Source of the DNA: Laetmonice hystrix
Lineage: Eukaryota
Reading direction: 5' to 3'
Assembly (NCBI GenBank): GCA_965235115.1
Contig: OZ249436.1
Span: 32,056,001 to 32,120,000, forward strand
Length of the DNA stretch: 64,000 nucleotides
Position numbers and translations under genes: made by a program
In this document: in pieces, positions 9,485 to 62,200 of the stretch
How positions within the stretch are numbered: the stretch's first letter is position 1
How the letters are laid out: the number at the start of each line of letters is the position of its first letter
The notes under the pieces: model-generated
Databases searched by the model: none
The model's input: the letters and a program-made list of their open reading frames with translations, nothing else
What the model was told of the DNA's origin: nothing

Positions 9485-12400
9485 ATGCCTTCCATCCAGG
9501 AAGTACACAGGTAAATATCTAGTCTGGGGTATCAGTCTTCTGGGTGCTAACGAATTTTCAAACAATCTACATCTATCTAGATGCTACTTTTAATTTGTTT
9601 TCAGTTTCAGTTCAATATAGACTACGTCAAGAAAGAACATTACAAATTTATATTGAAACTACAAATAATAGTATACGGGTCCATATACTGCTACAAATGT
9701 TTCCATTCTAGTATAAGCTGACTCTATCATGTTTCCCAGTTGAATTCAGGCCAGATATGTTAAAAACTGAAAAAAAAATCCATTGGGCTTTTTAAATGTA
9801 TCACTGCCAGAACTAGGAGAAATTGAAAGTGAGTGTATAAAATGTTGGAGTAGTCGCATCCTGCAAGCAGCTGGTTCCAGCAGTGATCAAGTGAATGTTA
9901 TTGTGTTGCAGGAGCTGGAAGATGAACGGATCCGGTTGTGTGTTTGATCACTATGGTCGCATCCCTGAGGGCATCTACAAGGTGACAAGTTTCACCTCGC
10001 CCCTGGAGGAGGCTGTCTACAACAATGATGTGGAAACGTTCAGGGTGCTGGTAAAGGTGGGTGTTATGTTATGGGTGTAAACGTTCAGGGCCTGGGTAAA
10101 GGTGGGTGTTATGTTATGGATGTAAACGTTCAGGGCCTGGGTAACGGTGAGTGTTATGTTATGGGTGGAAACATTCAGGGCCTGGGTAAAGGTGGGTGTT
10201 ATGTTATGGATGCAAACGTTCAGGGCCTGGTTAACGGTGAGTGTTATGTTATGGATGGAAACATTCAGGGCCTGGGTAACGGTGGGTGTTATGTTATGGA
10301 TGCAAACATTCAGGACCTGGGTAACGGTGGGTGTTATGTTATGGATGCAAACATTCAGGACCTGGGTAACGGTGGGTGTTATGGAGTGGATACCTTCGGG
10401 TTAAATCCCCAAATCAGAAGCAAAGTTAAAGACTCGATTCAAGATACACCTGCAAGCTGCCCAAAACGTGCAGAATATTCATGAAGTAATGGATATATGC
10501 TTGGGTTTCTCGATGTATGTAACCAGAAGTTGTTTATGAAGAAACGAGTCCTCATTCTTTGTGGACAGCCACAACTCATGGGCTTGCTAGGCCGGCTGGA
10601 CGGCTTAGAGATGCGAGATGCAGTAAACAATTAAATATTTAGAGGCCAGCCCTTGTGATCAATATTGGAAAATGGAGTGTAAGCAAGATGTCCCAATATA
10701 TCAGCAAAAGTATTTGGGATAAAGCTATCTGGGTTATCAATTAATATATTACTTACGATTACAACTTACTATTTACACAGCGAGGAACCTGAAATTTCAT
10801 ATTTGTTGTTTATCTAGGATGATGACCTAAAACTAAAGTGGCAATGCCCAGGTAGCTGTTCTAGTGAAGAACAAAGCAATTACGTCCAATTACTTAACTA
10901 CATTTATAACATGACCATGTTCCATAGTCAGGGTAATTATCGTAGGATGGTAATCTTTCTGGAATCCGTAAATCAGCGTATATTATTGATAGCTCACACC
11001 ACCTGTCCTTCAGAGATCCTAGCTCTGGTGCGCCCACTCCCCCTTAATGGTAATAATTTTCAAAAGACTCAAAGTAGGTGCCTATTACTAATTGCTATTA
11101 CTAATTGTATATTCCACACTTCTCCCGTGTGTTTTACTCAAAACTTTATGTAATTACACAAACCTAAACGAGTGCAGTGCATCATGTGTTATTTTCGTCA
11201 GTTGGCTGCCAATGGCAGGAAGAAACTTTGGCCGGACGCGTCATTGTAGCCCCCCGCCCCCCATTTCCCGTCAAATGATTTTATAGTAATAGTTGGTTAC
11301 ATCCAGTGCAACATTTTCACATGGGTTTTTGATGTACTTTACCAATGTGCACTCCATATTTTATGGATTGTAACCGTTCAGTGGTGATTGTAACTGACAC
11401 TGGGATCATTTTACCGTGGTAACTGTGTTACCTGTAACAGTCGACGTCAGCCACGTTCTGACAGAGCCCAAGTGGTTTCAGAGAATTTTCCTGTCATAAT
11501 CCATTTGTTGGGTGGCTTAACTTCTGCACCGAACCGTGTCAGAACCATCTGTGGTGCTGATATAACGACAAACAATGCATACACAGCTCTGAAAAAAAAA
11601 CCAGCTTTTAGGTGGTGGATTTATCACTTAATGCAGTCTCCAACTCCAGCGTATTGCGTTATTTTCATATGTTCTGAATATTGTGCGAGGATTGGGTGTT
11701 GTGTGAAGCGAAGTGGAAGGAAACAGGATTCAATATTGATGAAGACTGCAGCACCTCGCATGCCGGGCGGCCCATCCTATCAGATCTGGTAACCGCCATC
11801 TCCAACAATTAAACCATATCATTCAATGTCAACAACCTCAGGTTACTCGGGATAATTAATACTAGACAATTCCCACAGTGTTCAGTTCTAGTCAAGGTTG
11901 TAGGGTGTTAGGACATGATGTGCTACTACTGTGTGAGGTTCTCATTGCCTGACGACGCCAAATCCATGTACTCAGCAACCCAACTGTGAAGATGCATTTT
12001 ATTAACGACTCTCTGGAAAACTGGTTCCTACAAAAACATAACTTGCCCTAAATACGGTCTGATTGTTGCGTAATGGCTGACAAGAGATTGGCAGATTGCT
12101 CTATTAGGAGGAACTATAAATGGCCAACATCATTGATGACCAAGGAGAAAAAAAGGATTGCTGCTGATTTGTTCTGGCAGGCAGAATTTAGCAATGTGAC
12201 AGATAACATTTACGAGTTATTACAGATTGGCCGACATGATCACCCGTCATTTGGGAGTGTCGTTCATCTCAGCTAACAATGACACGTCGTTCTACATGGG
12301 TTATGGGCGCTAATAACATGGGATCTGGGGCGTTTGGTATGATAACGTAAATAATCATTAAATAATTCATTGTGAAATCCTAGGTCAGCAGGAATAGCCT

Positions 12401-14657
12401 GCTGTCTACTACAAAGATGTATTTTGGCAAAGGGAAGGGATGAAAAACAGTTATTCCATTTCTTCACAGTAATGATTACTAGTGTTAGTATTACTAATAG
12501 TGTTAGTGTATGTGAGAATCTCCCCAGCACATTTCATGGGGATTTTACCTTGGGGGATCTACCTGCCCTGATAGTGGACCGATAGTGGGACTGTGGAGGG
12601 ACCGATTGAGGGAGCGATAGTGGGATTGATGGAGGGACCCATAGTGGGACCGAGGGAGGGACCGATGGAGGGACCGATAGTGGGACTGATGGAGGAAACG
12701 ATGGAGGGACCGATAGTGGGACCGATGGAGGGACCGATAGTGGGACCGATGGAGGGACCGATGGAGGGACCGATGGAGGGACCGATAGTGGGACTGATGG
12801 AGGAAACGATGGAGGGACCGATAGTGGGACCGATGGAGGGACCGATAGTGGGACCGATGGAGGGACCGATGGAGGGACCGATGGAGGGACCGATGGAGGA
12901 ACCGATGGACCGAGATGTAATGTCGTGGTGTGTTTTGTTATAGGAAGGTCACGCGGTCAGTGTCAGGCTACGAGTCGGTCAGATGAGTTGTATCGAGTTC
13001 GCCGCCATGATGGGATACGCCGACATGCTAACTGCTATCATTGACAACTCTCCAAACGCAGACACCCTGCGCAAATACTTCGCACTTGATGGTTAGTGAC
13101 TTTTATTCACATGCACATTTGATGCACATTACAACAACGGGGATACTACAGAGTTCTGCAGATGTCATATGTCCAAACTGTTTAAGGCATGACTGATATA
13201 GAATTCTGCATCGAGTCAGTCTTTTTATGATCTACAATAGTTTAGAAAGGCCACAGCAGAATCTAAGAGAAAGTCGTACCTCAGATTATCATTCCTAGGT
13301 GATTATACATGTATCTGGAATCATTGAGGCCATATTTTTTGCTTAATAAAGGTATTATTAAACTGAAATCTATTATTATGTTATGAACAGCCTGGTGCAT
13401 ATTGTAATGTACGCAGAGAGAAGTTAGAACTTCACACCACTGTCATTCACAATTTTGCGTAACGGCCTTTGCTTACACTAACCTGAGACAAGTAGGGTTT
13501 AACATGGCGTCGTGGACAGAGATCCGCGGCAGATATGCCTTACCTGAGCATACCATACCGCGTAGTCTTATGTAACCGATACGGGACATATTATGTAACC
13601 CCTATCATGTAGACACTGCAGCTACTAGGGGGTATTTTCTAATTATCGCAGGCCTCATTTCATTTCATTCTTGGAACGCCAAGTACCAGTTACTGGTCGG
13701 CCAGTATTATACAAGCTAAGTCCGAACTTGAGAGATTACTTCTCGATTTCGACTAAGGAGTTTTCCAAAAGACTTTTAGGCCATGACGTCATACATTTTG
13801 TACAGCGCAAACAAATATTAGAGAACATTAAGTTGTTGAGATAGAAACAGACCAAGGTGCGCCTTCACCTTGAGTATCTGGTGATGTGTACGAAACTCTC
13901 CATGTAAGATTTTGTTTCTCAATTTTTAAACAAATGTGGCTCTGCCAGCCGAAGCCACAATGTAATAATGATGGAAGCTGTCTAAGCAGTATGTAAGCTG
14001 GGTGCTCTGGTTGAAGTTATGTTCTCTGTATTACATTAGAGTGAGCAACAATACAACATACAATGTATATCATGTAGCATGTAATATTGACATTTTCATT
14101 TAGATTCTTTTACGATGCTTGTTTTCTGATGTTTTCAGATGTAGTAGAGAGGGCGTACATGATCTCTCGAAACAAAGATATCTTCTTTAGTCAGGGGGCC
14201 CTGGCGGAAGCCAACCGGTACGAGGCGGCCCTCTTCACGGCCGTCGAGTACGACCGTCCCGAGTGTGTCCAGGTGATGCTTGGATACCTCGGCCGCAAGG
14301 ACCCGCCGAGACACTGCTTCATTGTGGCCGATAACCGACAGAATCTGTCGGCGTCTGAACTTGCCAAAATTCGGGGTGAGTTTATTCACTGGTTTACTCT
14401 GAACATATGAACGTGGTTTTAGAATTCTTCTTGTAGACAGGCCAATTAACCAGGCTTATTATCCAGAATAGCAGCCCCCAGAAAGAGAGTCAGTAGTTGT
14501 TCTTTCCTGCCGTATCAGGTATACATGCGTGATGAATCTACGATAATGAAACAAGCATACTTCTGATACAGTCACATAATAGAGTAATTATTTTCCAGGT
14601 TACACCAAGTGTCAAGAACTCCTAGAGAGCCACCTGAGGACGTGCGTCCAGGTCTAA
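9485..14657 (+). CDS. Spliced gene encoding a 204-aa protein with about 4 degenerate ankyrin repeats. Exons 9485-9510, 9912-10056, 12944-13091, 14139-14375, 14599-14657
   Basis: All introns are GT-AG and phase-compatible; 615 nt = 205 codons, MPSIQEVHRSWKM...SHLRTCVQV*. Ankyrin-like helix-turn-helix segments: TSPLEEAVYNNDVETFRVLVKEG, MSCIEFAAMMGYADMLTAIIDN, EAALFTAVEYDRPECVQVMLGY, LSASELAKIRGYTKCQELL. The first exon/ATG is the least certain part. Confidence 0.8.
10030..10392. repeat. Minisatellite, 45-bp unit, about 8 copies, spanning the exon-2 donor of the ankyrin gene
   Basis: Unit aaacgttcagggcctgggtaaaggtgggtgttatgttatggatgt. The first copy is the exon end plus the AAG|GTGGGT donor at 10056/10057. 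Confidence 0.95.
12568..12915. repeat. Minisatellite, 12-bp unit (gggaccgatgga / gggaccgatagt)
   Basis: Direct periodicity; the array ends about 28 nt upstream of the acceptor at 12943. Confidence 0.9.
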
Positions 14658-15845: not shown

Positions 15846-16115
15846 CAGTCTGTCCGCGCTAACTTGAGCCTAATGCATAGTCATGCCGGCCAATGGGTGA
15901 GCTAGGTGTTGGATACTACCCATGTGTAGGAGGGCAGAACATGGTTTGACCACAGGCAGCCAGATGCCGGCCACTGTCACTGAACCTGTACACACTGGTT
16001 TGAATGACAGGCCACTCTCGTCCCCCATTGGCCGGTATTGGGTTACGTCAGCACTGGGCCAACCCCCACCGTTAATGAGACCCCGCCCCGGGCTCAAGTT
16101 AACGCAGACAGACTG
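15846..16115. mobile_element. Tc1/mariner-type MITE (270 bp)
   Basis: TIRs cagtctgtccgcgctaacttgagcc / ggctcaagttaacgcagacagactg, with TA on both flanks. Confidence 0.8.
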
Positions 16116-20924: not shown

Positions 20925-23900
20925 TTAATTTCTGCCAACTATCCCACAGAGCAGAGTGCGATAGTCTCCGCTCGTGTCGTGTTTGATGAAGTTCCACAAC
21001 GTCTGTCGGTACTTCTCCAGGAAACACTGTTTGATCTGTACCATGTCAATCTGCAGGTAAGACAAAACAAAATGTGGGTAGTACGACATTATAGAATGAA
21101 ACATGGCTCTATATATCTCAAATACAACATACCCATAGCTTGAACACTTTGATTTGGTTTAACTGGAGAAAACGAACCTAATCTATTATTATTATAAACA
21201 TGAATTAGCATAAACTTAGGCATGAGACGATCAGACCTTTGGTGGAAGTATTTCTAAACCTGGCCTATAAATGTCATTATGTTCTGACATTGTGTTGCTG
21301 TGGCCCACGTCAGGTGACCAAGGGGGTGGATTCAGGATTTTGGAAAGGGCAAAAGGTGTAAACCCGACACAGATGAGATCCAAGAGGGTCAATTCATGAA
21401 ATTCTGAACAAAATGAAAATTTTGTGCCAAATGGGCTGTCCTTGATCCCCATCGAGCACGCTTGAGATCCACCCCTATATAGGCCTATAGCAGGGTTATG
21501 TACATGTCTAATACGTACCTCTGACCGGGAGATGACCACTCGGATGAGAGTAGCGTCACTGGTTCCCAAGCCTTTCATGGCCTTGTAAAGACGCTCGGCA
21601 AAGTACATCGGGCGACACTTGATGTTCTGGGCTGCAAGTCGGCAAAAGTTAGCTTTAGTTAGTATTTACCAGTACAAGGAGGAGCCACGGGACACGTACG
21701 GGTCGGACATATTATTATATCCATTCATCTAAATGGTGCCGTTCACCACCGTGGAAATGAATACACATGATTGTAACGGATAGAATTCATACATTATAGT
21801 CAAGAAGAACCCACAGATTAATGAACTTAAAAAATTTCACAAATTTCACAATTGTTATTATTTTGTACTGGAATACATAAAAAATTATATTGGACTACTG
21901 ATGTTAACATACAGCTTACCAATAGCAAGAAGTCCTCGTTTGAAATTCCCGGATGTTTCTCTCTCGACTGAGTTCATGATGTCACGCTGGGTGAGCTGTT
22001 AAATAAAATCTATAGTAAACCACTAAGACATCATACCACTATCATACTTGGAATCTAACATATAGCCTTGCCCTATAGTATATGTGGCAGTCAGAATGAC
22101 TGAAGGTGGCTTACCTTCACATACTCGTCCCACACTGTACCATCATACCACTATCATACTTGGCATCTAACATATAGCCTTGCCCTATAGTATCTGTGGC
22201 GGTCAGAATGACTGAAGGTGGCTTACCTTCACATACTCGTCCCACACTGTACCATCATACCACTATCATACTTGGCATCTATAGCCTTGCCCTATAGTAT
22301 ATGTGGCGGTCAGAATGACTGAAGGTGGCTTACCTTCACATACTCGCCCCACACTGTACCATCATACCACTATCATACTTGGCATCTAACATATAGCCTT
22401 GCCCTATAGTATCTGTGGCAGTCAGAATGACTGAAGGTGGCTTACCTTCACATACTCGTCCCACACTGTACCATCATACCACTATCATACTTGGCATCTA
22501 TAGCCTTGTCCTATAGTATACATGTATGTGGCGGTCAGAATGACTGAAGGTGGCTTACCTTCACATACTCGTCCCACACTGTACCATCATACCACTATCA
22601 TACTTGGCATCTATAGCCTTGTCCTAGTATCTGTGGCAGTCAGAATGATTGAAGGTGGCTTACCTTCACATACTCGTCCCACACTGTACCATCATACCAC
22701 TATCATACTTGGCATCTATAGCCTTGTCCTAGTATCTGTGGCAGTCAGAATGATTGAAGGTGGCTTACCTTCACATACTCGTCCCACACTGTACCATCAT
22801 ACCACTATCATACTTGGCATCTAACATATAGCCTTGCCCTATAGTATCTGTGGCGGTCAGAATGATTGAAGGTGGCTTACCTTCACATACTCGTCCCACA
22901 CTGTACCATCATACCACTATCATACTTGGCATCTATAGCCTTGTCCTATAGTATCTGTGGCGGTCAGAATGATTGAAGGTGGCTTACCTTCACATACTCG
23001 TCCCACACTGTACCATCATACCACTATCATACTTGGCATCTATAGCCTTGTCCTATAGTATACATGTATGTGGCGGTCAGAATGATTGAAGGTGGCTTAC
23101 CTTCACATACTCGTCCCACACTGTACCATCATACCACTATCATACTTGGCATCTAACATATAGCCTTGCCCTAGTATATGTGGCGGTCAGAATGACTGAA
23201 GGTGGCTTACCTTCACATACTCGTCCCACACTGTACGCATGGTGTAGTAATCCTGAGTGGAGAAGATCCGTACAAACGTTTCTTCATCCGTGCCCCATCT
23301 CTCCTCGCCACATTCGTGAAGTTCCTGTGCCATTCTACTGGCCCGCCTCACGTTACATAACTGAAAACCTCAAACTTATGGAGATCATGCTGCATGCGTG
23401 ATTACTAAACTTGTCAATACGCCATTCTACTGGCCCACCTCACGTTACATAACTGAAAACCTCAAACTTATGGCGATCATGCTGCATGGGCGTGATTACT
23501 AAACTTGTCAATACGTCATTCTACTGGCCCACCTCACGTTACATAACTGAAAACCTCAAACTTATGGCGATCATGCTGCATGGGCGTGATTACTAAACTT
23601 GTCAATACGTCATTCTACTGGCCCGCCTCACGTTACATAACTGAAAACCTCAAACTTATGGAGATCATGCTGCATGGGTGTGATTACTAAACTTGTCAAT
23701 ACATGAACGCCATTCTACTGGCCCACCTCACGTTACATAACTGTCGAAGAAAACCTCAAACTTATGGAGATCATGCTGCATGGGTGTGATTACTAAACTT
23801 GTCAATACATGAACGCCATTCTACTGGCCCACCTCACGTTACATAACTGTCGAAGAAAACCTCAAACTTATGGAGATCATGCTGCATGGGTGTGATTACT

Positions 23901-29900: not shown

Positions 29901-30288
29901 CTTTTTGGGCACTTGGACTGATTCCATTTCTTTGCGCACCGGCATGAAGGAGGGTGAGGATAAGTTCGGTGTTTACCCACCTGGTGGCGCCTGCGGCCCC
30001 ATTTGGTGGCCGCCGTACGCGGGGTACTGGTTCACATTGTAGGCGCTCCCATAACCGTAACCTCCACCAGGGGGCGGTGGTGGGCCGGAGCTGGGATAAC
30101 CGTAACCTCCGGCGCCCGCCGCGAATGGACTGCCCCCTGGCGGAGGGTAGTTGGACTGTTGGAAGACACAGGAGGGGTTTATGTGATGACACACACAGAT
30201 ATGGGTTACATACACAGCCAAGTTATTCTTACACATAAAAAACCGGGTGGCATGTTAAATATATTAGGCCTATACTTACTCCCCACAT
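20925..30288 (-). CDS. Annexin (ANXA7/ANXA11-like N-terminus, invertebrate group B type), 604 aa. Coding exons 30280-30288, 29981-30155, 29396-29425, 29140-29178, 28413-28468, 27800-27904, 26906-26983, 26738-26788, 26243-26546, 25732-25826, 25474-25587, 25088-25178, 24674-24774, 24263-24364, 23211-23360, 21920-21995, 21519-21631, 20925-21050
   Basis: Four annexin repeats with endonexin motifs [21 protein letters not shown] and GLGTSD, and downstream acidic caps KGDLSG, EDDTSH, ERETSG and KHDTSG. The C-terminus is typical ([17 protein letters not shown]). The N-terminus is G/Y/P-rich ([14 protein letters not shown]...). All junctions are GT-AG and in phase (1815 nt), with an in-frame TGA upstream of the ATG. 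Confidence 0.95.
22030..23236. repeat. Minisatellite, 105-113-bp unit, 11 copies of the annexin donor at 23210/23211
   Basis: ttaccttcacatactcgtcccacactgtac occurs at 22111, 22223, 22330, 22442, 22555, 22660, 22765, 22877, 22984, 23097 and 23207. Confidence 0.95.
23329..24015. repeat. Minisatellite, 92-106-bp unit, 7 copies of the annexin acceptor at 23360/23361
   Basis: cattctactggccc occurs at 23331, 23423, 23517, 23611, 23711, 23817 and 23917. Confidence 0.95.
25227..25352. mobile_element. Palindromic MITE-like element in an annexin intron
   Basis: Perfect 22-bp inverted arms ccgggtaatacccgggtcagtg (25246-25267) / cactgacccgggtattacccgg (25305-25326). Imperfect GGG...CCC termini with TTA/TAA flanks (PIF/Harbinger-like). 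Confidence 0.6.
26975..27633. repeat. Minisatellite, 28-bp unit, about 23 copies, spanning the annexin acceptor at 26983/26984
   Basis: atcagacc recurs at 27001, 27029, 27057 and onward; unit variants are cccatctaaac and ccaatgtaaac. Confidence 0.95.
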
Positions 30289-47200: not shown

Positions 47201-50200
47201 CTCCGTGGCTAGCACAGCGGAGAATGGCTTAAAGACACGCATTATGAAGGCGCTGGAACAGGCAAGGTTATACTTCGTCAAAATGACTTTGATTCAACAT
47301 GGTACACCACTTAACATCAAAGCATTTTATTGAAATGTTTATTGAAACTCAGTTATCTATAATGCCCACACTATATACCTGTAGTCCTGCACTGGTTGGT
47401 CTATAACTTGGTTGACATTGGTCTTCCATGCCTCCATCTCGTGAAGTTCCATCTGGGCCTCGACAGCAGCCAGTGCCTGCTCTGGGTGGATCTGGAATTA
47501 CAGCAGGTGCAGATGTTACCTGGACACAGATGTTACTTGGGCACAGATGTTACAGACTGGGTAATCATTCCTTTACTTGAGTATTAGAGAGAAAAATTAT
47601 ATCTCCAAATAGTATATGGAGTGTATGTTAAGCTGTGTTATCTTCAGTCTTCAACATATTCCATATTCTTTTATTAATACCAGGTCAACCTATCACAAAC
47701 AAAAGGACTCTATTCCAAAGTCATACCCTGTTGGAAATATAGAGACAAGTTTAAGTTAGGAAGTACCTGATAGAAGTAGTTGGAGGCAAGGCCAGGACCG
47801 GCAATCCGTCTAGCGACAAAACTGTCACATGCTGGCACTCTGCCTCGCTTCTTGATGATGGCGTGAAACATAAAGGCATCCCAGACGGCTCGTCCCCCTC
47901 GTTTCAGGACTCCCACTATACAACACCACAGACATGGTAAGTGAGAGACGGCCACCGCTGACTGCCAAATACAGGCCATCAGATTTGGATTCACTTTAAT
48001 CAAGTGGTATGGACCACTCACTAAACCTTTGTTACACAAAGTGATAATGTTTTGACAAGAAGTCATTTGTTTTTGTCTTTCTACAAGAAATATGCTGAAG
48101 CAATAAGGTCTTTACCAAACCTCAAATCCTGACCTGCCTCTGTGACTTTATAAAGAATTGCTTACTGCTAACGATAAGAGACAAACTGACCGAGGAGTAT
48201 GACTAGAGCAGCGAAGGGGCATGCCACAAGTCCGGCGAGGAGAGCCCCGATGGGCTGGAGGCAGCCTTGGATGAGCAGCTGCCAGACCAGCACCTCCCAC
48301 AGATACAGGATCCGGTTACTAGCGTCTGTCAAACCCAAACCACACCATCATCTACAATCTTTACTCCCTTCACAAGAACATGGTGAAATTTTAAAATGAT
48401 TACCTTTAATTTCCAACATTAAAAATCTAAATCTGAACTCATGAAATGAAAGAGCTGCTGACTAAATGATTCTTACCTGGATGGTCAAAGTCATAGATGA
48501 GAACTTCAAAAATGTGGACCAGCAATGTGACTACAGGCATCCTGAAAGATTAGTATACATTACAATTAGTTCTCTCTTACAGATTTTAATCCTACCCTTG
48601 TCAATAACACTTAGGAAATAGTACTTTGACAAGACAGTACCTTCAATCATTAACACATATGTGATCATCTATCATTTTCACCAAACCCTCATCATGATGA
48701 GGGCGTGTGCTGTATTTAACTTACCATAAGGGGGTGGTGAGAGCAGCCACAATGGACAGAATGGATGCTGTGACACAGAGGATGGGGAAAACGAGAACGA
48801 GCAGGAAGCTGCCCAAGGCACCCTTGATGCCGTAGTTCCAGAAACGGTTCACGTGCCGAGTAAAGGCCTTCCCCAGGAAACCTTCAATCAGAAACGCCCG
48901 TCCATCAAATCTTGCTTATATGAATGACTTTTCAGAATTCTTTGAATCCTGAGAAAAACGCCCCAGAAGTATGTATCTGTGACAGCGTTTCATCTGCTAA
49001 TGACAGCTGTGCCAACGTTACCTGTGTCTGGGGTGTTCTCAAATGTTGAGCGGGAGTGACGCACGTGACGCCATAGGGCACGTAACCGCGACGCCAGGGT
49101 ATGTGTCTGTGAAGACTGTTTGGGACACAGTGTACCCTACAAAGAGATGCCCATATGTAGCTCTTCTATCAACACTAAGGCTTTTACGGGAACTTGGTTG
49201 ACCTTCTTTGTCTAATCATTAAATAATCATTATTTCTTCACAACAAGAATATTGAAAATCACAAAGGGTCTATTCAAAATCTGTTTTTCTTATCTAATTT
49301 CTAATCATAAAGGTTTTTATATGCTAGAAATGTTTAAAAAGATTTATTCCACATACATTGACTTTGTTGAGTTTCAGATCTGGCATGAATGGATGTGGGA
49401 AGAAAAGGGCTCTAAAACTGACTGGGCTGCACCATGGTACTGCAACCTGGAAAAACACAGACAGAATAATCGGATTCATTATAAAACACAGACAATGGGA
49501 AACACTTTTACAGATATTCAGCCAATAAAAATCTCAGTTCTGGATAATACTGGGCTGTAAGTTTGCACTCAACATTCTTCTATTTTCAGGTTCAGTCACC
49601 TCACTGCACAAGAATCCAGTCAAGTTCTATACAACCTTGACTGGTAATTATTATTTTGCACTTACACAATTTTAACATTCCTGGCAGGTGGCCTACACTA
49701 ACAGGTGGCCTACTTACCCCAAGCCAAAACATGGCATTCAGCATCCAAGCGAATGTGCGATGAAAGTAGCAGATCCATCGCCAAAAGGGGTAGCGAGTGC
49801 TCGTTTTCCGCAGGATGTATTTCTGAACACTAAAGGTTGCCTGGAGAATTAAAAATACCATCTTTTGCTTAACACCTTTACCGATGAGACCTGGTAACAA
49901 AATGTCATGTCTAAATCCTTACCGAACACCAAAAATATGTTTGTTTGAATCTGAATCAAATTATTATGGTAATGAAAAGCTTCCATTACATGCTGACTTA
50001 CGGTACTAAGAACTTACCACTTACCAAGTACAGGAAATCCAAAAACATATAAAATCACAAACCTCATCTGGGTCAGGCTGTGGTGTGTTCATGGAAACAG
50101 GCGAGTTAACGATAACAGTTGGGATGACTTCTTCCTCCCCATACAGGTGGCGCTTTACAATCCAACGGCTTGGGCGCCAGATGCGATTTGCCCAAGTGAA

Positions 50201-53200
50201 GACTCGTGTCGGAATGCGAACCTTTCCTAACTCTTTCCTCCAAACTGGTTCTCTCTGGAGAGCAAACAAAGACAGTATGATGAAAATTCTTCACTTTCCC
50301 CCCCGTTTCAATTCTTGATAACAAGCAAACGCAAGTACTAGTAATGAAATTGTATACTAATTACGTTATCAAATATCATATGGAAAATGAGATAAGCCTA
50401 GCTTGCTTACATCACGCATGAAGATAAGGTCCCTTTGGAGGAAGTATATTGCCTGCTCGAGGCCTTCACTGCGGCATCCCTGGACAGCCTCTTCATGAGC
50501 CCCCCACTGGTTCTGCTCGATGAATTCCCACTAACAGGCAAAACATGGAATTCAATTCAAATCAGTCCTCTATCTACGATCAAAATTAAAACATGTATGA
50601 AAAATTGTTATATTTTATATCATGGCTTCTCCACACAAATCAGCTTCATCATATTTTCACTTTTATTAAAGAACTAAAATTACTTGCTAGTACAATAGAG
50701 TAAAAAATATTATTATACTAAAGTTATGAACTATAACCTCGAAAGCTTGGAGTTTTTCATTCATCCAGGCCCGAATACGAGATCTCACTGGGTACGTCCG
50801 CACCAGATGTGAGCGCAACTGAATAAAAAATAAATAGGTCAACAACAGACATAGAAGAGAATAAAGAATTACCTAATTTTTGGGTTGGGGGTGGGGGTGG
50901 GGGTGGGGGTGGGGGTGGGGGTGGGGGTGGGGTGGGATGGGAGGATCCGTTCACAGTGTGGGCCTGTGATCAATCACTCACACTCCCCCAAAGAAGACTG
51001 CCAACTTGGGCAAATACTCTCGTCCCAAACACTGAATGTGGCCAAGTTTACCATATAATTGTAAGAGTTGATATAGTACAGGTAGTCAAGAAATAGAAAG
51101 TGACTACCCTTTTTATACTATCTAATGAATTGATCACATGACTAACCTCTTCTTTATGGCGCTGAAGTTTGTTGCGGACGTGATCCACTGCATATGTCAT
51201 GATGAGCACAGCCTTTGCCTGCTCCACGAGTACCTCACCTGCGGAACAAGGACAATGCATGATTACCTCACTGATAAAAACTCCAAATACATGCACAGGC
51301 GTTTCCAATGGCAGTATATACATTTGTATGCTGCGGAACTTGTGCCCTGTTTCCAATAAAAGTTAAAGTCAGGTTAAGTCTGCCTGAAGTCAATTTGAAC
51401 CGAACCAATCAGATACAAATAAATTTGTGAACATTCCTCTTTTGGTCCAATCTTTAAGCTATCCTGAAATTTAGAACTGGTTTTCAAATAAAGATGTTAT
51501 ACCTGTATGATGTGTACATACCTATACCAGGCTGTAAACCTTCCAGCTCATCACTGCGTATAATAGCATCATAAACACGGCGGATATATTCCTCTAGTAT
51601 GGAACTATTTACTCTCTGAAAATAATTAACATGATGAGGTAACAACACATAATGTCATAAAAAGGATGAGGACTAGACTGACCGAAGATTGCTACATGTA
51701 ATGAAAGCAGGTCCCTTACATTGTAAATAAGTTACTACAAAGTGATCTCATGTGATACCTCGATGAACCACTTTTTAAATTAAAATATTTTTAGATTCAA
51801 ATGTAAGGGCAACCCACTCTTATCATTCTTCTATTTTGCCATAGCTTAAGAGATATAACTTTCTTACCTTAACAATCTCCTCATATGTTAAGTTTTGATC
51901 TGCCAGAAAGTAAAAACCAGATTATCACATTAGGCAGGCTTTAACAGCAAACCATGAAATACTGAAAAAAAGTCTAAAATCGTGATTTGACAAATTATGT
52001 CATAAATGGTAAATTGTTAGGCTATAATAAAATATCACCTTTGAGTTCAGCGAGCATCCTGTCCTTGTACTTGATGTACCAGCCTCTTGACTCCAACTCC
52101 AGGATGGTCTTCAGTACAGCCACACACCGCTGCATCAGGTCTGTTCAAAACACCAGTAACAACACACATTATATGTAATGCTTGGGTAGCAGGTCAGTTC
52201 AACACACCAGTAACAGCACACATTATATGCATTGCTTGGGTAGCAGGTCAGTTCAACACACCAGTAACAGCACACATTATATGCATTGCTTGGGTAGCAG
52301 GTCAGTTCAACACCCCAGTAACAGCACACATTATATGCATTGCTTGGGTAGCAGGTCAGTTCAACACACCAGTAACAGCACACATTATATGCAATGCTTG
52401 GGTTGCAGGTATGTGAAACAAACCCCTATAAGCACACATGATAGCGACACTTGGCCATCAGATCTGTTCTAAACACCAGTAACAACACAGATTATATGCA
52501 ATGCATGGGTACCAGGGCCCGTTTTTTTGGTTGAGCTCGAGTCAAGTTTGAGACGAAAACCTCGTCTCAAGCTCACAGCCCTATGAGTCGACCCAAAGGG
52601 CCGTGAGCTTGAGACGAGGTTTTCGTCTCAAACTTGACTCAAGCTCAATCAAAAAACCGGGCCCTGGTCTGTCCAACACACCAATGACAGCACTCATGAC
52701 GGTAACACTTGACCATTAGGTCTGTCAAACCTGTCGCCAGTAACATAACAATTATATTGGTAACAAGATGAAAACAACTCACCATTGTTAAACAACCTGA
52801 GGTCGATCTCTGTGCCTTTGGGTGTTTGATATTTGTAGGGCACAGACGGTGGTGAAAAGTCAGAAGTCTGCAAACAGAAATAGGGAAATCCTGTCTTTAA
52901 AGGATATCATAAACAATTTTTGTTACAAAATAGAAAAAAAACTGTAATTTTCTGAGCAGCGACTTAATATTAATAATACATTGTGTTATGCCATCAATCT
53001 GCTCCTTATGCGGATTTCTAACATTTTTAATAAGTATGAGTCATGGTGGCTATTTAGACCTACATTCTCCAAAGCTATGGAATAAACCAGAAATTAAATT
53101 TTGACCTTGTGTTTTTCTACTTGTGCTTGTTTACACTTTTCCTTGACGTAATCACAGAAGTTTATCCAGTAGCACTTGTATTTAGGCTGAAATCACACAA

Positions 53201-56200
53201 GAATGAAAGAATGTTCAGATTTACAGCTTACAAAAATTGTAAATGGTATTATGTCATTCTTTTTCAATCAAATTCTTACCCAAAAGAGAGCACATTAATA
53301 AACTTATCAACAATTTATAGGCTTTGCAAGTATAGTTTGCTGAAGGAAATGTGACCTGTACTGGATTTGAATAGAGTACAAGGGTATCCAACATATACCT
53401 TAACGTTAAGTTCTGCCACAAGGAAACGTCCATGTTCCTCTCCTAACTTTTGAATTATGTCTCCTGGTGTACTGGAAGGCATCCCTATCAGTATATCTAA
53501 ACAAAAGAACATAACAATTAGCTACCAAGCCTTAAATAAGATAATCTTGACAAATGCTTTAATTTTTACCTTTTCCCTATTTACGGCATTTTTACACTCT
53601 TATGTATGGTACACAGAAAGGTTATATACACAGGAAAATATACACCTGGTCTTCAGTAACTGACACCAAATTCATTGTTTAAATTTGAGATCTTCTTCCA
53701 GAATTAAAAGCTCAGAGGCATACCAAACAAGTGCCAGACAGATCGGCCAACAGACTTCAGGGACTCGGAGAGGCTGAAGAAATGGGAGTGGAAGCGATTC
53801 CTGGCAGTGATTATGATCAGACGTAGAGCCAACGACATATCCTGTAATATTGACATGGTATCAATAACTGACAGGTCATTCAGCTATGATATGTATTTTC
53901 ATGACTCTGATACACTTCAAATAATGGTCCAATTATAATTCAAAGAATGCACCTACTGTAAAAATGCCACTTTACAGTCTACAACTATGATTTATCTGAC
54001 TTAGAAACTAGTAATGTTTATGTGGGAAGTACATGTACAACCATACATGGCCGATTTTCACATTTTTCTTTAAAGTTTATTTCTTACTATGATTTGGTAA
54101 GACATAATATGGAAAAATTATTATAAATCTTGTTAATAATATTTCTAATGATAAGGAAGAATACTACTTACATCCAGCAGTGTGTCCTGGGATCTCCGAG
54201 TGCCTTTCTGTAGAAGTTTGCTCAGTCGCCACCTGTGGGCCTGACTAGGGAAGTGAATGCTGTCGACATCAAACTCCCTGAAAAATACAAGAGGTAAAAT
54301 ATATTATAAGAAAACCTCCTTTAAACAAAGCTGTTCTGTTGTTGATGAACTGCTGCATACTTTATGTTAATGCTCCTTACAGCTTACAGCCTTTACAATA
54401 TCATTAAAAACTTGAGGTTATTAGAGAACATACCCAAGCCTTCGTATATTGTCCAATTGTTTGTCATTGAGAAACTTGGAGTTTCCATTGTTATCCCTTG
54501 CTACTTCATCCAGTTCATCAAATGTTGGGGCCTTGAAAAGATCTTTGAATGAGATGACGCCCTCCTGAAATGACATCATGACTAGTAATTAGACAAGAAC
54601 TTACAAATTACTGACACTTATAATAGAAAATATGATAAAACATCACGTTTTCCAAACTATTTCCCTTTTTTTCTTTTTTCTTTTGCAAAAGAATTGAAAT
54701 CCTGAGCAATGGCCTGTTCTGTCAGCTCCTTCCCCTCCTAATACTTCACAAAGAATTACTGTTTGCTCTCACAAGGACTAATGTTGCAATACGCACTTGT
54801 ATGTCATCACTGCCGGCATTTCGTTCTGTGATGGACGGAGGAAGGACAATAGGAAAGTGACTCCAGTGGTACAACATTGTTTCAGCCAGCTGCAAAAATA
54901 TCACTGCACAGTAAGTAACTGGGCCACAAAGACATGTCTGAAAATGTAGTTATTATTATGTTTATTAAATTATCTCTATAAGAGAAACTGTGATCCAGAA
55001 GATCCCATCATCACTAATATGTAAATAGTGAGAGCACCTTACTTGGAAAAGGGCAAAAATATTGTATTCATTTCATTGCTTTCTTAAGACATTATTAGTA
55101 AAAATTTCACATAACTGGGAATAAATGAGACAGGATCTCTATACCTAGAGGCAACTGAATATAAATGTTCCTGATGTTACCTACTTCTTTGATCTGCTGC
55201 ATGACTTCCACTTCCCCAACAGTCAAGTGCTCAGTTTTGATAGTGAAGGTCAGTGGCTCCCTCTGGTGGAGAAGAGCAGCAAAGAATCCACGTCACAGAT
55301 ACTTTACAATGACTATGGCTATGAAAATAACATTTTGCTTCACTCTTGATTTTGAATGCTTCAAGTTGATTGCCACTTTATAGTCTTACGGTTCATTTCA
55401 GTATGGTATCTGAAGTTTGCAGTTTTTTCATATATTCAACTGGCTTTGCCTTACCTCTGGTTCCACATCTAGCTCCATGCTGTCGAGAGGCCTCTGTGGG
55501 AGAGAATGTCACGTTAGTAAAAAGAACATGACAAGAGCATACTAAGTAACACGATACAGCAAACTCAATACACCTCCCTTACTCAAGTTACTGAACCAAA
55601 GTCAAAGGTTCATGTCAAAACGGAGGTAATTGGTCTAATACCGTAGTTACATGCTTTCTGTATTTTTATGAGAACCGAGCTCTCATCTCGTGTCCCAATC
55701 CCCTGCTGCAATCACTACCATTATACGTCAGGGCCCACCCATCTGGGGTGATTGACCTGAGAACTCACGCATGACTCTGGTATACTGAACCGAAATCAAT
55801 ACCTAATACCAGGTTTGCACATAAAACGGACATTGATTCTACTGTATTTGAGTAATGATTCCATGACTGTGCTACCTTTGGGTCGAGGGAACAGTCTATT
55901 CATGGCATCTATACCTCACTGACAGTTAGAGGTCATTCAATAAGAGATGGATATCAAGTCAATACCTGTACGCTGGATATTTATCTCCTCTATATTAGAT
56001 CTATGGTCTTCACTAATATATCAAATGATTCTGTCTACATTCAGCCCACCCCAAGTGCATGACATCTCAGACTATTTGTGTATGATTGGCATGCTAGGTG
56101 GACTCTCAAGATCAATGCAAGAAGCAGCAGCAGGCTCCTCATATCAAAGGACACATCAAAGACCAGCTATGATTCCCACCTGTTTCTTATTAGTAAAAAA

Positions 56201-59200
56201 GGTAGTACCGGTAGTTCCCTCCTTAATCTGAGTTGACCTTGTTTAAAAAAACAACAACAAAACATATGTAAAGTCTGGACTGGTGGGACTGGGTTCTGAT
56301 GCTATGTTACGTACAGCCCAAGGTTAGCCATTGCCTTCTGGCTGAACAAGGACAAGCCAGTCAGAGTGGTAGCGAGATAAAACCAGTATGTTTTGGCTCC
56401 ATACTCCGGCTGGTGGTGCTAGTGGCTGCTGGCCAACTGGCAAGGGCCTGGGTTGATTACCGATGCTGACTGACCAAGACAAGATGGGCAGACACACTAA
56501 TAACAGGACTTGACAGGTGCAAAAATCCACAGGTGTTGTGTAATACTGCTGCACATGCATGCATACGTTTTTTTACAATGAATAATGGTATGAAAGCAAG
56601 TCAGCTCTGCTGATCATGAGACGCTTGTTCTGTAACAAAATACTGAATAGGGTACACAGATTGATAGCAGTGTGCAGCAGAGAAGGGGAAGGAAGGAGGG
56701 AGAGAGGGATGGATGGATGGATGGATGGAGGGATGGAGGGATGGATGGATGGAGGGAGGGAGGGAGGGAGGGAGGGAGGGAGGGAGGGAGGGAGGGAGGG
56801 AGGGAGGGAGGGAGGGAGGGAGGGAGGGAGGGAGGGAGGGAGGGAGGGAGGGAGGGAGGGAGGGAGGGAGGGAGGGAGGGAGGGAGGGAGGGAGGGAGGG
56901 AGGGAGGGAGGGAGGGAGGGAGGGAGGGAGGGAGGGAGGGAGGGAGTTTAGAAATATAAACTAATAGAAAATCACTGCCAACCTTGACCTCTGTGTCGGG
57001 GTCTATTTCATCTGCATTAGAATCCCCACTTTCCTGAATCAGAGAGAAAAAAAATATATATGAACAGCCAAATCAGTGATGATAACGTAGAAATACATTA
57101 GGCAAATGAAATTATTGTACAGAAATATACAAGATCAACAATATGTGAACCAGATAAAATCACTAGTAGGCATCTTCAGTATTACTGGATTATAAGAAGA
57201 GAATTGGTAGCTGACAGGACAGATTAATATAATTGACAACATAGACGTTGTTATTCAAAATACACAACAATTAGTTGGCTGAATGGGTAGGACTTACCTC
57301 TGTCTCTGTATGCACTCTTATGTCATCTTCCATGCTCTCCGCTATTACCTTTGTAATAAAAAGCATAAACTTGCTGACAGTACACTCAACCGAAACCTAA
57401 GATGTGTTACTTATAAAAAATCATTTGGAAACATAGACGTACTTACTGTACATAATGGCAAATGTCTCTGACATCAGGATGAGGGTTTCTTGCAGAGATT
57501 TATGGTATGTCCTAGTTGTTTAAAAGATTCCATAAACTGGCACCGGGACCAGACAGAGATGATTTCAAACATTTAAAACAAGAGTTGCTTCTTCATTTCA
57601 AGGGACGGTAAAAGATGATAAACTGCAGGAAGTATTACTTGTACATCTTATATGACCATCTGGTTCTTGGCCAACATATCAGCGATAGGATATTCATCTT
57701 ATACCCTGAATTAGGTACAAATATAATCATTTTCCTGTCACTAATGACAAAGAAACTGGTAAAAGAAAACTGTCTTTTTCTACTAAATTTTAAATATCCG
57801 ATTTTGAGGAAATATCCCCAAAAAGAATTATTAGTGGCAGAATTCTATTGTTAAGGTAACCAAGTATCATACATAGTGTTTAAAGAGTGCCAGTTTACCG
57901 GTACTTTAATATGAAATTTTCAAATTTTGTATGAAAGAGGATGCATCTGTTGCAGTACGCCATTGTTCTTTAAAGACAAAGTGGTATCAATATATTATTC
58001 ACATGCTTGCAATCATAACGACTGCCCATGCTGGGAGCCCTGTCAATGGGAGCTGGTGAACAACAAGTTACCTCGTGCTCTGAGCGCAGGTCTGCCTCAG
58101 TTGCTTCCGTTTTATCCTGGAATCATTTAATTATACTTCAGGTGATGTGTAAAACAGCGACCAGAGTTCCAAGTTTCAGACAGTGCTATATCTTATAATA
58201 CATCTGAAGCTCTGCATTTTGAGGAAGGACACTGCTGGAAATACAGTATGGCTGCTGAAAAAAGCCGCATTTCAAAAATAAACAATGCCTTACAACTTTT
58301 TACAGACCAATATTTAAAATAATAGAAATAATGGTGTTGGCTTCCTACTTTATGTAGTAATGCGTATATCATGGATTGTGAAAATATCCACATTGGGAAG
58401 AATGCCACATTATACTCACCTCTGAATCTGGTGTCAGATCAGTCTCCACTGTCTCTGTCACCTCCTGCAGCACATATCAGTATAACTATAACTAACTAAT
58501 TCTAAAATCTCCTGTCACCTCCCGCAGCACATATCAGTATAACTATAACTAACTCATTCTAACATCTCCTGTCACCTCCCGCAGCACATATCAGTATAAC
58601 TATAACTAACTCATTCTAACATCTCCTGTCACCTCCCGCAGCACATATCAGTATAACTATATCTAACTCATTCTAACATCTCCTGTTACCTCCTGCAGCA
58701 CATATCAGTATAACTTTAACTAACTTATTATAACATCTCCTGTCACCTCCTGCAGCACATATCAGTATAACTATAACTAACTCATTCTAACATCTCCTGT
58801 CACCTCCTGCAGCACATATCAGTATAACTATAACTAACTCATTCTAACATCTCCTGTCACCTCCCGCAGCACATATCAGTATAACTTTAACTAACTTATT
58901 ATAACATCTCCTGTCACCTCCTGCAGCACATATCAGTATAACTATAACTAACTTATTCTAACATCTCCTGTCACCTCAGGCAGCACATATCAGTATAACT
59001 ATAACTAACTTATTATAACATCTCCTGTCACCTCCTGCAGCACATATCAGTATAACTATAACTAACTCATTCTAACATCTCCTGTCACCTCCCGCAGCAC
59101 ATATCAGTATAACTATAACTAACTCATTCTAACATCTCCTGTCACCTCAGGCAGCACATATCAGTATAACTATAACTAACTTATTATAACATCTCCTGTC

Positions 59201-62200
59201 ACCTCCCGCAGCACATATCAGTATAACTATAACTAACTCATTCTAACATTCCTGTCACCTCCCGCAGCACATATCAGTATAACTATAACTAACTTATTAT
59301 AACATCTCCTGTCACCTCCCGCAGCACATATCAGTATAACTATAACTAACTCATTCTAACATCTCCTGTCACCTCCCGCAGCACATATCAGTATAACTAT
59401 AACTAACTTATTATAACATTTCCTGTCACCTCCCGCAGCACATATCAGTATAACTATAACTAACTTATTATAACATCTCCTGTCACCTCCCACAGCACAT
59501 ATCAGTATAACTATAACTAACTTATTATAACATCTCCTGTCACCTCCTGCAGCACATATCAGTATAACTAACTAACTTATTATAACATCTCCTGTCACCT
59601 CCCGCAGCACATACCGTATATGTCCTATTTGCCGCGCACCTCCTATTTGCCGCGCACCCCAGCATTTTTTAAAACCCAATGTGTTTGTCAGGGGTGGAAA
59701 TTTGGGAAAACTCATATTGGGGACTCATATTGGGGACCTATTTGGAAAGAAAATGCCCCCTTAACGTTAAAATAATTCATTTGCCGCGCACCCCCCTTCT
59801 GCACACGCGCATGCGCGGCAAATAGGACATATACGGTATCAGTAACAATAACTAACTTATTATAACATCTCCTGTCACCACTTGCAGCACATATCAGTAT
59901 AATTAACCTATTAAGAGGGTTTCCTGCAAGCCTTTTTTTGGGGGGGGAGACTCCCCCCCCCATTATTTAGCTACTCCCCCCCAAAAATTTCCAGGGGGAA
60001 ATATTTGGCATTACTCTCCCCCCCCCCCAACTCGCACCATTCCCCCCAAAAAGTCGAAAATCTCCAGGAAACCCTGTATATTTATAATAGCTCCTGTCAC
60101 TTTCTGCAGCAAGAGTTGATATGAAAAAAAAACACCTCCTCTCCTCCTCAGCATAATAATGTTGGCACAATTTTAAATGGAGGGGGTGGTAGGGGTGCTC
60201 CAGGTGGTCTTGACCCCTTTCTTAGTACAAGTATTGTCTTTTCTCTAAAACGTTTTTCTCACCTGTTTTTGCCTGCATTTTGTCAGACTCACTGTTCCTT
60301 TTCCAAATTCCTTTACCCATCCCCATCAAATTCAATTTTAAAATTATCACAATTACTGTTGACTCCTCCAGAATTATGTTGGAGCAAGTACTGTTGCTTC
60401 ATGTCAGTGAAAATTATATAATGATCACTGCTACACAGACTACCGTTACTTCCTGCAACATATATATTCCAATACATGTGTACATCAAAAGAAACCTTGT
60501 AGCCTCTGACTGGCATACCATACAGTGTATGTCACATAATAAACAGGTCTGTAGTTACATCCTCAGCTAGTATCTTCCCCTGTTAAGACAATCTGGAGTC
60601 AACCATCACAGGCCGACTCATCCTGCAATACTCGTGCATAAAGCAAACTAATGACAGATCTACATCCTGTTTCATATGTCAACATATACGTTGCAGCAAT
60701 ATATGAACATCAAACCAATCACAGCTTTTACAGTATCAGTCAGGAATAATGCACCTCTCAGCACAATGTTACTACTGTACCAATGGCAATGCCAGGGATG
60801 CCAACTGGTAGGAAAAAAAGAAACAAAATTCTGTGATAAACCTATGTGTGTTCCACAAATATGAATTAAAAAGAAAGCCCCAACGGGACACCCTTGAAGC
60901 ACATTATCAGAAATGATCTTTTTGGGCATACAACTCCCAGTATAAATTTTAGAATAAATAAAGTTGATTTCCAGGGAAGATTGGCATCCCTGCCACTCAC
61001 ACCGAGTGAACGGTTCTGCCGCATACTGCTATTACAACCAGTGACTGACTCCAAGATAAAAAAAAAAGGCTTGGTTTAAGGGACTTTCCTTGTAGCAAAC
61101 TGACGGGGTTAGCAAGCAGCAGGATGCCTTCCATTAAGTAATTCCACATAGACCGAAAATACAGCACTCATCCATATCTCACGAACAGATTTGCACCCCT
61201 CTACACAAATCATCATACTCCAGTATATTATTGAAACAACTGGGACTAGTTTAAATTCTGGGAACAGATCAGAAGCCTTCAAACCAAGACCTCCTATATT
61301 TTGGAGCTTCTAGCTTAGATTAGTACAGAAATCTCTGGTAAATCCCTATGACACATGAAAGCATCTCAACTAACTTAACTACATACATTGTATACCTTTA
61401 GGCTTTATATTATATAGATCTACCACAGCTAATTGGCAACTTGGGGGGGGGGTTCTATCAGTTAATATAGTAGACAGTTACTGGGGGGGGTACAAGTTTA
61501 TGAGGGAACTACACGTAGTGAAGGTACAAATTTATACCACTGATATACAAACTGAAATTGCCCTCAAGATAAACAGAAATTTTCCAGATGAATTGGTGGA
61601 GGGCCTGAGTAATGAGTTTATAAATACAATTGCTACTACCGGTATTGAATTGAGCAGTTTTAACATGCCTGTCATGACATCCCTGACAATATTGAAAAAT
61701 TGAAAAATACTGCTATTACATATAGCATGCTGGAGGCACTCTATTATGATATTTAAAAAATTATAATAAAATCATCTGATGAGAGTGACTGGTTTGGCCT
61801 CATTTAGTCCTATCATGCTTTTAAGACACATGCAATTTAAAAGTTGGGTAAAGATCACTCACAAATCCAAAAATACTGGACAGTAGCTTCATAAAAATTG
61901 ATAAATTTCATAAAAATGTTTGCATGCATATGTGCATGTACATGGTCTTGCTATAGGCACATTCATTTTAGAAAAATTGAGTTTTACTACATCTCTAACT
62001 CAAGATCAAATAATTATCACTAAAGAATCCAGTACATGTACATTTATAATAAAATAATGTCTCTACTACTGGATGTCTTATTGTTGAGATTACTAAGTGG
62101 ATAGTACAAGGGGCAGGGCAGTTTGCTGAGAAAAGTGACAACGCTTTTGCCTGATTAGCCACCCTGAGAATGTATTCTATCCCAAATTGCTAATATTTGA

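What the first reader, a model, noticed from the sequence alone, without database searches (positions are those of the whole stretch)
10030..59905. Systematic tandem amplification of splice junctions ('splice-site minisatellites') in all three genes
Seen: of eight arrays with unit >=25 bp and >=5 copies, six have a terminal unit that is a real exon-intron boundary. These are the ankyrin donor at 10056 (45 bp x8), the annexin donor at 23211 (about 110 bp x11), the annexin acceptors at 23360 (about 97 bp x7) and 26983 (28 bp x23), and the membrane-gene acceptors at 52140 (54 bp x6) and 58464 (57 bp x21). The units are unrelated in sequence. Each carries roughly 7-32 nt of exon plus flanking intron and grows only into the intron, and the exon-proximal copy is always the one that gives the intact protein. 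Inference: junctions are a small fraction of the window, so the coincidence suggests either a mutational process seeded at splice junctions (splicing-coupled pausing/R-loops, or rolling-type local re-replication) or a selected role as decoy/NMD-coupled splice-site arrays. It could also be a live substrate for the tandem-duplication route to intron/exon gain.
Basis: partly seen in the sequence, partly recalled or inferred. Interest (0 to 1): 0.85.

Follow-up and report, generated by a model that had tools for sequence, protein, structure and literature searches.

The report
Splice-junction "mirage" minisatellites in a worm
In three neighbouring genes of a probable annelid worm, short pieces of DNA that straddle a splice site have been copied head-to-tail into the intron; this repeat type is already known from lancelets and a human gene, and here it looks like a tolerated by-product that is somewhat more common than chance predicts.

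Summary
In detail: 6 of 8 large arrays end in an exon-intron boundary; four boundaries are homology-proven, two inferred. The structure is known: amphioxus 'mirage' minisatellites and the human F7 intron-7 VNTR. This scan has noted it before in this and other genomes. The organism is probably an annelid.

In 305 myosin and kinesin introns elsewhere in the genome, 16 of 40 arrays span a junction, against 5.7-8.9 expected. The excess is real but only about 1.5-3-fold (strictest test P = 0.09), so this window is a high draw. 'Grows only into the intron' and 'proximal copy is functional' follow from geometry alone.

The copies look filtered by selection rather than kept as decoys. The copy next to a real acceptor has lost its AG in 8 of 22 arrays (2.7 expected), donors lost GT in 0 of 12, and copies rarely carry over 35 exon bases. 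The hold-out subset (1 of 7) did not repeat the AG loss. No sign of intron gain; no RNA run was listed.

Best reading: tolerated local duplications with a modest, unexplained bias towards junctions.

The parts
10034..10383 (+). Donor mirage of an ankyrin-repeat gene: 45-bp unit (about 23 exon + 22 intron), 8 copies; real donor after 10056; all 7 extra copies keep GT
9380..14657 (+). Ankyrin-repeat gene, modelled exons 9380-9510, 9912-10056, 12944-13091, 14139-14375, 14599-14657 (5' end uncertain); named homologs from Capitella and Ridgeia
22029..23236 (-). Donor mirage of the annexin gene: 105-113-bp unit (26 exon + about 86 intron), 11 copies, filling all but about 33 bp of a 1215-bp intron; real donor after 23211; all 10 extra copies keep GT
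23329..24015 (-). Acceptor mirage of the annexin gene: 92-106-bp unit (30-32 exon), 7 copies; real acceptor before 23360; all 6 extra copies keep AG
26964..27634 (-). Acceptor mirage of the annexin gene: 28-bp unit (8 intron + 20 exon), 24 copies; real acceptor before 26983 (inferred, not homology-proven); 7 of 23 extra copies keep AG, the adjacent one does not
20925..30288 (-). Annexin gene, 17 coding exons, 591 aa, 70% identical over 327 aa to Capitella annexin and 45-46% to three other annexins, two of them named gastropod proteins
52136..52516 (-). Acceptor mirage of the Lips-family gene: 54-bp unit (5 exon; 8 in an older distal copy), 7 copies, with degenerate remnants to about 52700; real acceptor before 52140; the 4 nearest copies have TG for AG
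58455..59620 (-). Acceptor mirage of the Lips-family gene: 57-bp unit (10 exon + 47 intron), 21 copies, with degenerate copies near 59881 and 60103; real acceptor before 58464 (inferred, not homology-proven); 7 of 22 extra copies keep AG, the 3 nearest do not
40600..62775 (-). Lips-family gene (Pfam PF25228), 36 modelled exons, 1305 aa open frame, 54% identical to P0002 over aa 84-1276; the small upstream exons are inferred
7604..8052 (.). 25-bp x18 array, not at any modelled junction
8600..9287 (.). 34-bp x20 array with two alternating unit types, not at any modelled junction

Best explanation
These are 'mirage' minisatellites, by-products of a genome-wide tendency to form private 25-120-bp tandem arrays in short introns. 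(1, inferred) A short segment is duplicated head-to-tail locally, by slippage or break repair. (2, shown by geometry) Seeds wholly inside an exon are purged; a seed that straddles a junction leaves one copy joined to the rest of the exon and puts the spare copies in the intron. (3, inferred) Unequal exchange and slippage amplify and homogenise the spare copies. (4, from F7, not tested here) Spare donors lie downstream and are ignored because the first donor is used, so they keep GT. (5, supported statistically) Spare acceptors lie upstream and can compete, so variants that lost the AG next to the real site, and units with at most about 35 exon bases, are favoured. (6, measured, cause open) Junction-spanning arrays are 1.5-3 times commoner than seed-anywhere predicts; my guess is a modest mutational bias for breaks or slippage near exon edges, not selection for a function.
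For: Same anatomy as amphioxus mirages (PMC3087553; PMC3902484) and F7 IVS7, where only the most upstream donor is used (PMC1557585). Units are locus-private. Array density is ordinary for this genome: 78 arrays in 691 kb of myosin and kinesin regions, 7.2 per 64 kb, against 8 here; 24 of 40 intronic arrays elsewhere touch no junction. Adjacent acceptor copy lost AG in 8 of 22 arrays against 2.7 expected (P 0.002), while other AGs in the same units changed in 3 of 66 (Fisher P 0.0005). Donors lost GT in 0 of 12 (acceptor against donor, Fisher P 0.03); 82 of 83 donor copies keep GT. In three window arrays a distal copy keeps AG while the proximal copies lost it. Exon share exceeds 35 nt in 2 of 34 arrays against 11.2 expected (P 3e-5). 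38 of the 39 window copies that keep GT/AG would bring in a stop codon if used.
Against: The excess at junctions is not explained by this model alone (16 of 40 against 5.7-8.9; 6.0 after GC weighting). AG loss is weaker outside the window (5 of 18 against 2.1, P 0.04) and absent in the hold-out set (1 of 7 against 1.2). 14 of 22 acceptor arrays keep the adjacent AG, two of them over about 50 copies or more. AG loss is confined to units of 57 bp or less (8 of 12 against 0 of 10), but short units are also more diverged (rho -0.63), and AG depletion in ordinary introns reaches only about 22-32 nt upstream, so a simple AG-exclusion zone does not account for it. No RNA evidence on which sites are used.
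Confidence: 0.65

Rival explanations
1. Pure geometry: arrays seed anywhere; short introns plus removal of exonic seeds put many of them across junctions, and this window is a lucky draw. There is no bias towards junctions.
For: Collapsed introns are short (median 253 and 286 bp). With the strictest settings (same-intron null, at least 6 exon bases, introns up to 1 kb) the excess is 11 of 26 against 7.6, P 0.09. Non-spanning arrays are spread evenly along introns (KS P 0.7-0.9).
Against: Pooled nulls give P from 4e-5 to 0.03 and most same-intron nulls P 0.003-0.055. Limiting viable seeds to 35 exon bases lowers the expectation to 4.2 of 40 (P 1e-6).
Confidence: 0.15
2. Splicing-coupled seeding: the spliceosome, a paused polymerase or an R-loop at the junction sets where the DNA duplication starts, for example by break repair templated on a protected piece of pre-mRNA.
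For: Excess of spanning arrays. In 7 of 12 donor arrays the unit starts 21-26 nt inside the exon (P 0.006 allowing for window choice), near the exon-junction-complex position of 20-24 nt (recalled, not from a call).
Against: The cluster was noticed after the fact. Without the two window arrays P is 0.10, and with a 35-nt cap 0.04-0.28. The two donor arrays found later by a blind scan start at 9 and 14 nt. Acceptor arrays show no cluster (P 0.41). 24 of 40 arrays need no junction.
Confidence: 0.12
3. Selected decoy arrays: spare splice sites are kept to divert transcripts into NMD or to bind splicing factors and so tune expression.
For: 82 of 83 donor copies keep GT; 38 of 39 intact window copies would give a stop codon; some copies score as well as the real site on a local weight matrix.
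Against: Acceptor copies lose AG more than expected. The GT retention in adjacent copies (0 of 12 lost) is not distinguishable from neutral (1.5 expected). Arrays are private to single introns and occur in unrelated motor-protein genes. In F7 and the amphioxus genes the spare sites are reported as unused or harmless.
Confidence: 0.06
4. Intron or exon gain in progress by tandem duplication (the Rogers model; the mirage route proposed by Ebner et al.).
For: The model is proposed for mirages in PMC3087553. The Lips gene has a run of small phase-0 acidic exons that could be old exon duplicates.
Against: 0 of 24 spanning arrays cross both ends of an intron. Spanning introns are shared with paralogs as often as others (11 of 17 against 159 of 288, P 0.62). 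Two homolog fragments read through into intron-like sequence at the position of donor 23211 (P0004, P0006), so that intron is probably old. Spare sites almost always give stops.
Confidence: 0.04
5. Assembly artefacts.
For: Copy numbers were not checked against reads.
Against: Copies differ by shared, patterned substitutions and indels, distal copies are degenerate, and elements with terminal inverted repeats sit inside two arrays. All arrays are under 1.3 kb, on a 73.8-Mb contig.
Confidence: 0.02

Closest known systems
Amphioxus 'mirage' minisatellites (Adh3, globins BflGb6 and BflGb9, troponin C, PGBD5). Seen: passages of PMC3087553 and PMC3902484; the original Canestro 2002 paper was not held
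   Same: Local tandem repeats whose unit spans an exon-intron boundary, at donors or acceptors; unit 10-160 bp; homogenised inner copies and divergent edges; many but not all copies keep AG/GT; mechanism stated to be unclear; an intron-gain model was proposed.
   Different: Here a probable annelid, not a cephalochordate. Here the frequency was counted against null models (about 40% of intronic arrays, a 1.5-3-fold excess) and an acceptor/donor difference in signal loss was measured. Polymorphism, somatic instability and correct splicing were shown in amphioxus but not tested here.
Human F7 intron-7 37-bp VNTR (PMC1557585; abstract and Discussion read)
   Same: The first unit spans a donor; several identical downstream pseudo-sites stay intact, and only the most upstream one is used. 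Matches the arrays at 10056 and 23211.
   Different: One human donor-side locus, tested with minigenes; nothing on acceptor arrays or genome-wide frequency.
Intron gain by tandem duplication across AG/GT proto-splice sites (Rogers model; as described in PMC3087553, and the search listing)
   Same: Tandem duplication of sequence that holds splice signals.
   Different: That route duplicates exonic sequence and creates a new intron; here existing introns are lengthened and no array spans both ends of an intron.

Membership tests
Mirage minisatellite | Head-to-tail array whose unit spans an exon-intron boundary | tested here: met
   6 arrays; 4 junctions homology-proven, 2 inferred from frame and GT-AG
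Mirage minisatellite | Unit derived from the local gene, not a dispersed repeat family | tested here: met
   5 of the 6 junction arrays searched genome-wide; all matches local; the search skips very common words; the 28-bp array was not searched
Mirage minisatellite | Unit length about 10-160 bp, several copies, concerted evolution with divergent edges | tested here: met
   Units 28-112 bp, 7-24 copies; shared variants among inner copies, degenerate distal copies
Mirage minisatellite | Many but not all copies keep AG/GT | tested here: met
   39 of 74 extra copies in the window keep the dinucleotide
Mirage minisatellite | Normal mRNA is spliced at the exon-proximal site | not testable with these tools
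   No RNA holder listed
Mirage minisatellite | Copy number varies between haplotypes or cells | not tested
   One assembly only; no reads were laid on the arrays
Rogers-type intron gain by tandem duplication | Duplicated segment flanks a new intron on both sides; intron absent from relatives | tested here: not met
   0 of 24 spanning arrays cross both ends; intron positions shared with paralogs at the usual rate
NMD-coupled decoy splice sites | Use of the spare site gives a premature stop | tested here: met
   38 of 39 intact copies; also expected for almost any intronic sequence
NMD-coupled decoy splice sites | Spare sites are kept by selection | tested here: not met
   Adjacent acceptor copies lose AG above expectation; donor retention not above neutral
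NMD-coupled decoy splice sites | Spare sites are used in vivo and regulated | not testable with these tools
   No RNA data

The most novel reading that the evidence does not exclude
Splicing leaves a mutational footprint on germline DNA in this lineage: tandem duplications are seeded at splice junctions, with donor-side breakpoints set about 21-26 nt inside the exon, as if a spliceosome-protected piece of pre-mRNA or a junction R-loop templated the repair. Thousands of resulting arrays would also form a natural experiment in splice-site choice, in which spare donors are harmless and close spare acceptors are purged.
Probability: 0.12. Interest if true: 0.8.

Novelty: new member of a known kind. 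Interest (0 to 1): 0.38.

Why it matters
The structure is known but was described from a handful of amphioxus and human loci, with its origin called unclear. In this genome 17 of 305 sampled introns carry one, so there should be many more, enough to test two open points directly. One is whether transcription or splicing biases where tandem duplications arise. The other is how the spliceosome picks among identical sites, since the donor/acceptor difference in signal loss is a population-scale read-out of first-come donor choice against acceptor competition. In practice these arrays lengthen introns (arrays are 14% of sampled intron bases) and can mislead gene prediction.

Tried and rejected
RNA: no RNA holder listed for 20900-30200; the three runs listed are one sample of unknown kind and are not used as evidence; no reads were laid, so copy number and site use are unchecked.

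A planned replicate in aldehyde dehydrogenase and SLC6 genes gave 46 resolved introns with only 3 arrays: 1 spans an acceptor, 1 starts 8 nt after a donor, and 1 was dropped because it rested on a weak profile hit inside the array. That is too few to test enrichment. 94 arrays outside resolved introns were left out of the enrichment count; 10 of them with one known or predicted junction formed the hold-out for signal loss, which did not repeat it.

Tested and not explaining the result: GC bias for the junction excess; a simple AG-exclusion zone for AG loss at 44-57 nt; dispersed satellite or transposon origin of the units.

A minus-strand gene to make the 25-bp and 34-bp arrays donor mirages was considered; no reading frame or homolog supports it. 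A candidate ankyrin exon at 16615 was dropped for one at 14599 that resembles the homolog ends; the null still used the dropped exon. Candidate Lips exons near 57705 and 57511 were left out as uncertain.

Literature: searches listed no report of mirages in annelids, of an enrichment test, or of the donor/acceptor difference; the library lacks most subscription journals. PMC12783039 (passages) describes earthworm intronic minisatellites but no junction-spanning units in the passages shown. PMC2812944 was seen as an outline only. The supplements of PMC3087553 (alignment of the BflGb6 mirage copies) were not opened and may already show AG loss in acceptor copies.
Full report
Observation. I built gene models and checked them against homologs. 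The annexin (minus strand, 17 exons, 591 aa) is 70% identical without gaps over 327 aa to Capitella annexin. The 'membrane gene' is a Lips-family gene, Pfam PF25228, with 36 modelled exons, a 1305-aa open frame and 54% identity to P0002 over aa 84-1276. The ankyrin-repeat gene aligns without a gap across the 10056 junction to 7 homologs, of 9 found; the two with names are from Capitella and Ridgeia. The organism is therefore probably an annelid; this rests on best hits, not a tree. Six arrays hold a junction in a terminal unit at the stated coordinates. Four junctions are homology-proven (10056, 23211, 23360, 52140); two are inferred from frame and GT-AG (26983, 58464). Five of the six units were searched against the 627-Mb genome and matched only locally.

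Any tandem duplication across a junction leaves exactly one copy joined to the rest of the exon and puts the others on the intron side. 'Grows only into the intron' and 'the proximal copy gives the intact protein' follow from that.

Is it more than chance? In the window, yes: 6 of 8 against 0.75 expected, and 6 of 6 gene-body arrays against 1.3-2.0 when wholly exonic seeds are excluded. The window was chosen for looking odd, so I tested elsewhere. I fetched 691 kb of myosin and kinesin gene regions, placed 455 exon anchors with profiles, and resolved 305 introns with consistent phase. Junctions there are predicted, not RNA-confirmed, and 94 arrays outside resolved introns (a count that includes the later replicate regions) were left out. 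Of 40 arrays with unit >=20 and >=3 copies, 16 span a junction. Expected are 5.7 if seeds fall anywhere in the pooled collapsed introns (P 4e-5) and 8.9 if each is re-placed in its own intron (P 0.003). Requiring 6 exon bases gives 13 of 40 against 5.2 and 8.0 (P 9e-4 and 0.027); adding a 1-kb intron cap gives 11 of 26 against 6.3 and 7.6 (P 0.028 and 0.09). Weighting seeds by GC raises the pooled expectation only to 6.0. The excess is real on most nulls but modest, about 1.5-3-fold, and 60% of arrays touch no junction. Array density in the window is ordinary: 7.2 per 64 kb elsewhere against 8 here. A further replicate in 46 introns held only 3 arrays and decides nothing.

What happens to the spare sites? 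Donor copies keep GT: 82 of 83 copies in 9 arrays, and 0 of 12 adjacent copies lost it against 1.5 expected. Acceptor copies differ. The copy next to the real site has lost AG in 8 of 22 arrays against 2.7 expected from each unit's own divergence (P 0.002), while other AGs in the same units changed in 3 of 66. Outside the window it is 5 of 18 against 2.1 (P 0.04), but in the 7 hold-out arrays it is 1 against 1.2, so my prediction fixed was not repeated there. Loss is confined to units of 57 bp or less (8 of 12 against 0 of 10), a cut chosen after seeing the first 15, and short units are also more diverged. In three window arrays a distal copy keeps AG while the proximal copies lost it, by different substitutions. 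AG depletion in ordinary introns here reaches only about 22-32 nt upstream, so an AG-exclusion zone (PMC1431707, abstract) is not enough; competition between complete acceptors is my inference. Units seldom carry much exon: over 35 nt in 2 of 34 against 11.2 expected. Of the 74 spare copies in the window, 39 keep the dinucleotide and 38 of those would bring in a stop, which is expected of most intronic sequence.

Intron gain. No spanning array crosses both ends of an intron (0 of 24). Introns with a spanning array share their position with a paralog as often as others (11 of 17 against 159 of 288, P 0.62). Two homolog fragments read through at the position of donor 23211, which suggests that intron is old.

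One lead for a mechanism. In 7 of 12 donor arrays the unit begins 21-26 nt inside the exon (P 0.006 after allowing for window choice; 0.10 without the window arrays). The two donor arrays found afterwards by a blind scan begin at 9 and 14 nt. This is a post-hoc lead only.

How it most likely works. A general slippage or repair process makes private minisatellites in short introns (inferred). Seeds inside exons are purged; seeds across junctions survive because one copy stays joined to the exon (geometry). Spare donors are ignored because the first donor is used, as shown for F7 (PMC1557585, abstract and Discussion; assumed here). Spare acceptors are more often inactivated (statistical support, mixed replication). 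A remaining excess at junctions is measured but its cause is open; a mutational bias near exon edges is my guess. No RNA holder was listed, so site use is untested, and copy numbers were not checked against reads. Patterned variants, degenerate distal copies and inserted inverted-repeat elements argue against assembly error.

Comparison with what is known. The structure was named 'mirage' in amphioxus Adh3 and also reported in globins, troponin C and PGBD5, with normal splicing, unstable copy number, partial loss of AG/GT, an unclear origin and a proposed route to intron gain (passages of PMC3087553, and PMC3902484; the original paper was not held; supplements not opened). My searches listed no annelid case, enrichment test or donor/acceptor contrast. 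This scan has noted the same structure before in this genome and in other annelids, sea urchins and a shark; those notes are unchecked, and one argues that random placement suffices, which I tested and found too low on most nulls.

Verdict. A real, correctly described feature and a new member of a known kind. The additions are a measured, modest excess at junctions and signs of purifying selection on spare acceptors. Interest 0.38.

Noticed in passing
window 55455-62775 (minus): The Lips-family gene seems to begin with a run of small (36-51 nt) phase-0 acidic exons not covered by the homolog found, possibly old tandem exon duplicates.
   Followed up: partly
window 54818 (minus): The Lips model needs a GC donor here; the exon end is not RNA-confirmed.
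   Followed up: no
window 59608-59842, 52515-52665 and 1281-1489: Short elements with terminal inverted repeats sit inside both Lips arrays; the first has ends resembling an element at 1281-1489.
   Followed up: partly
window 7604-8052 and 8600-9287: The two non-junction arrays each hold a GT on the minus strand next to a divergent terminal copy, and the 34-bp array starts right after an AG on the plus strand; they could be mirages of an unrecognised non-coding exon.
   Followed up: partly
window 12576-12909 and 56686-56946: A 12-bp array and a GGGA run each end 35-37 nt from an exon edge without crossing it; many arrays elsewhere also stop 15-36 nt short of a junction.
   Followed up: partly
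window 9380-30288: The Capitella homologs of the annexin (P0005) and the ankyrin gene (P0170) list the same longest-contig length, which hints at conserved linkage.
   Followed up: no
L077-L079 (myosin gene on G000:C18, 2812001-2842000): A 42-bp x23 array begins exactly at the GT of a donor, with no exon bases in the unit.
   Followed up: no
L111 (kinesin gene on G000:C7): One intron carries a donor mirage at one end and a 67-copy acceptor array at the other; a later intron has a 51-copy acceptor mirage; all copies aligned keep AG.
   Followed up: partly
L086/L106 (G000:C3) and L087/L107 (G000:C4): Two near-matching myosin N-terminal fragments with only two exon hits each and a stop in the first-pass match, possibly duplicated gene fragments.
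   Followed up: no
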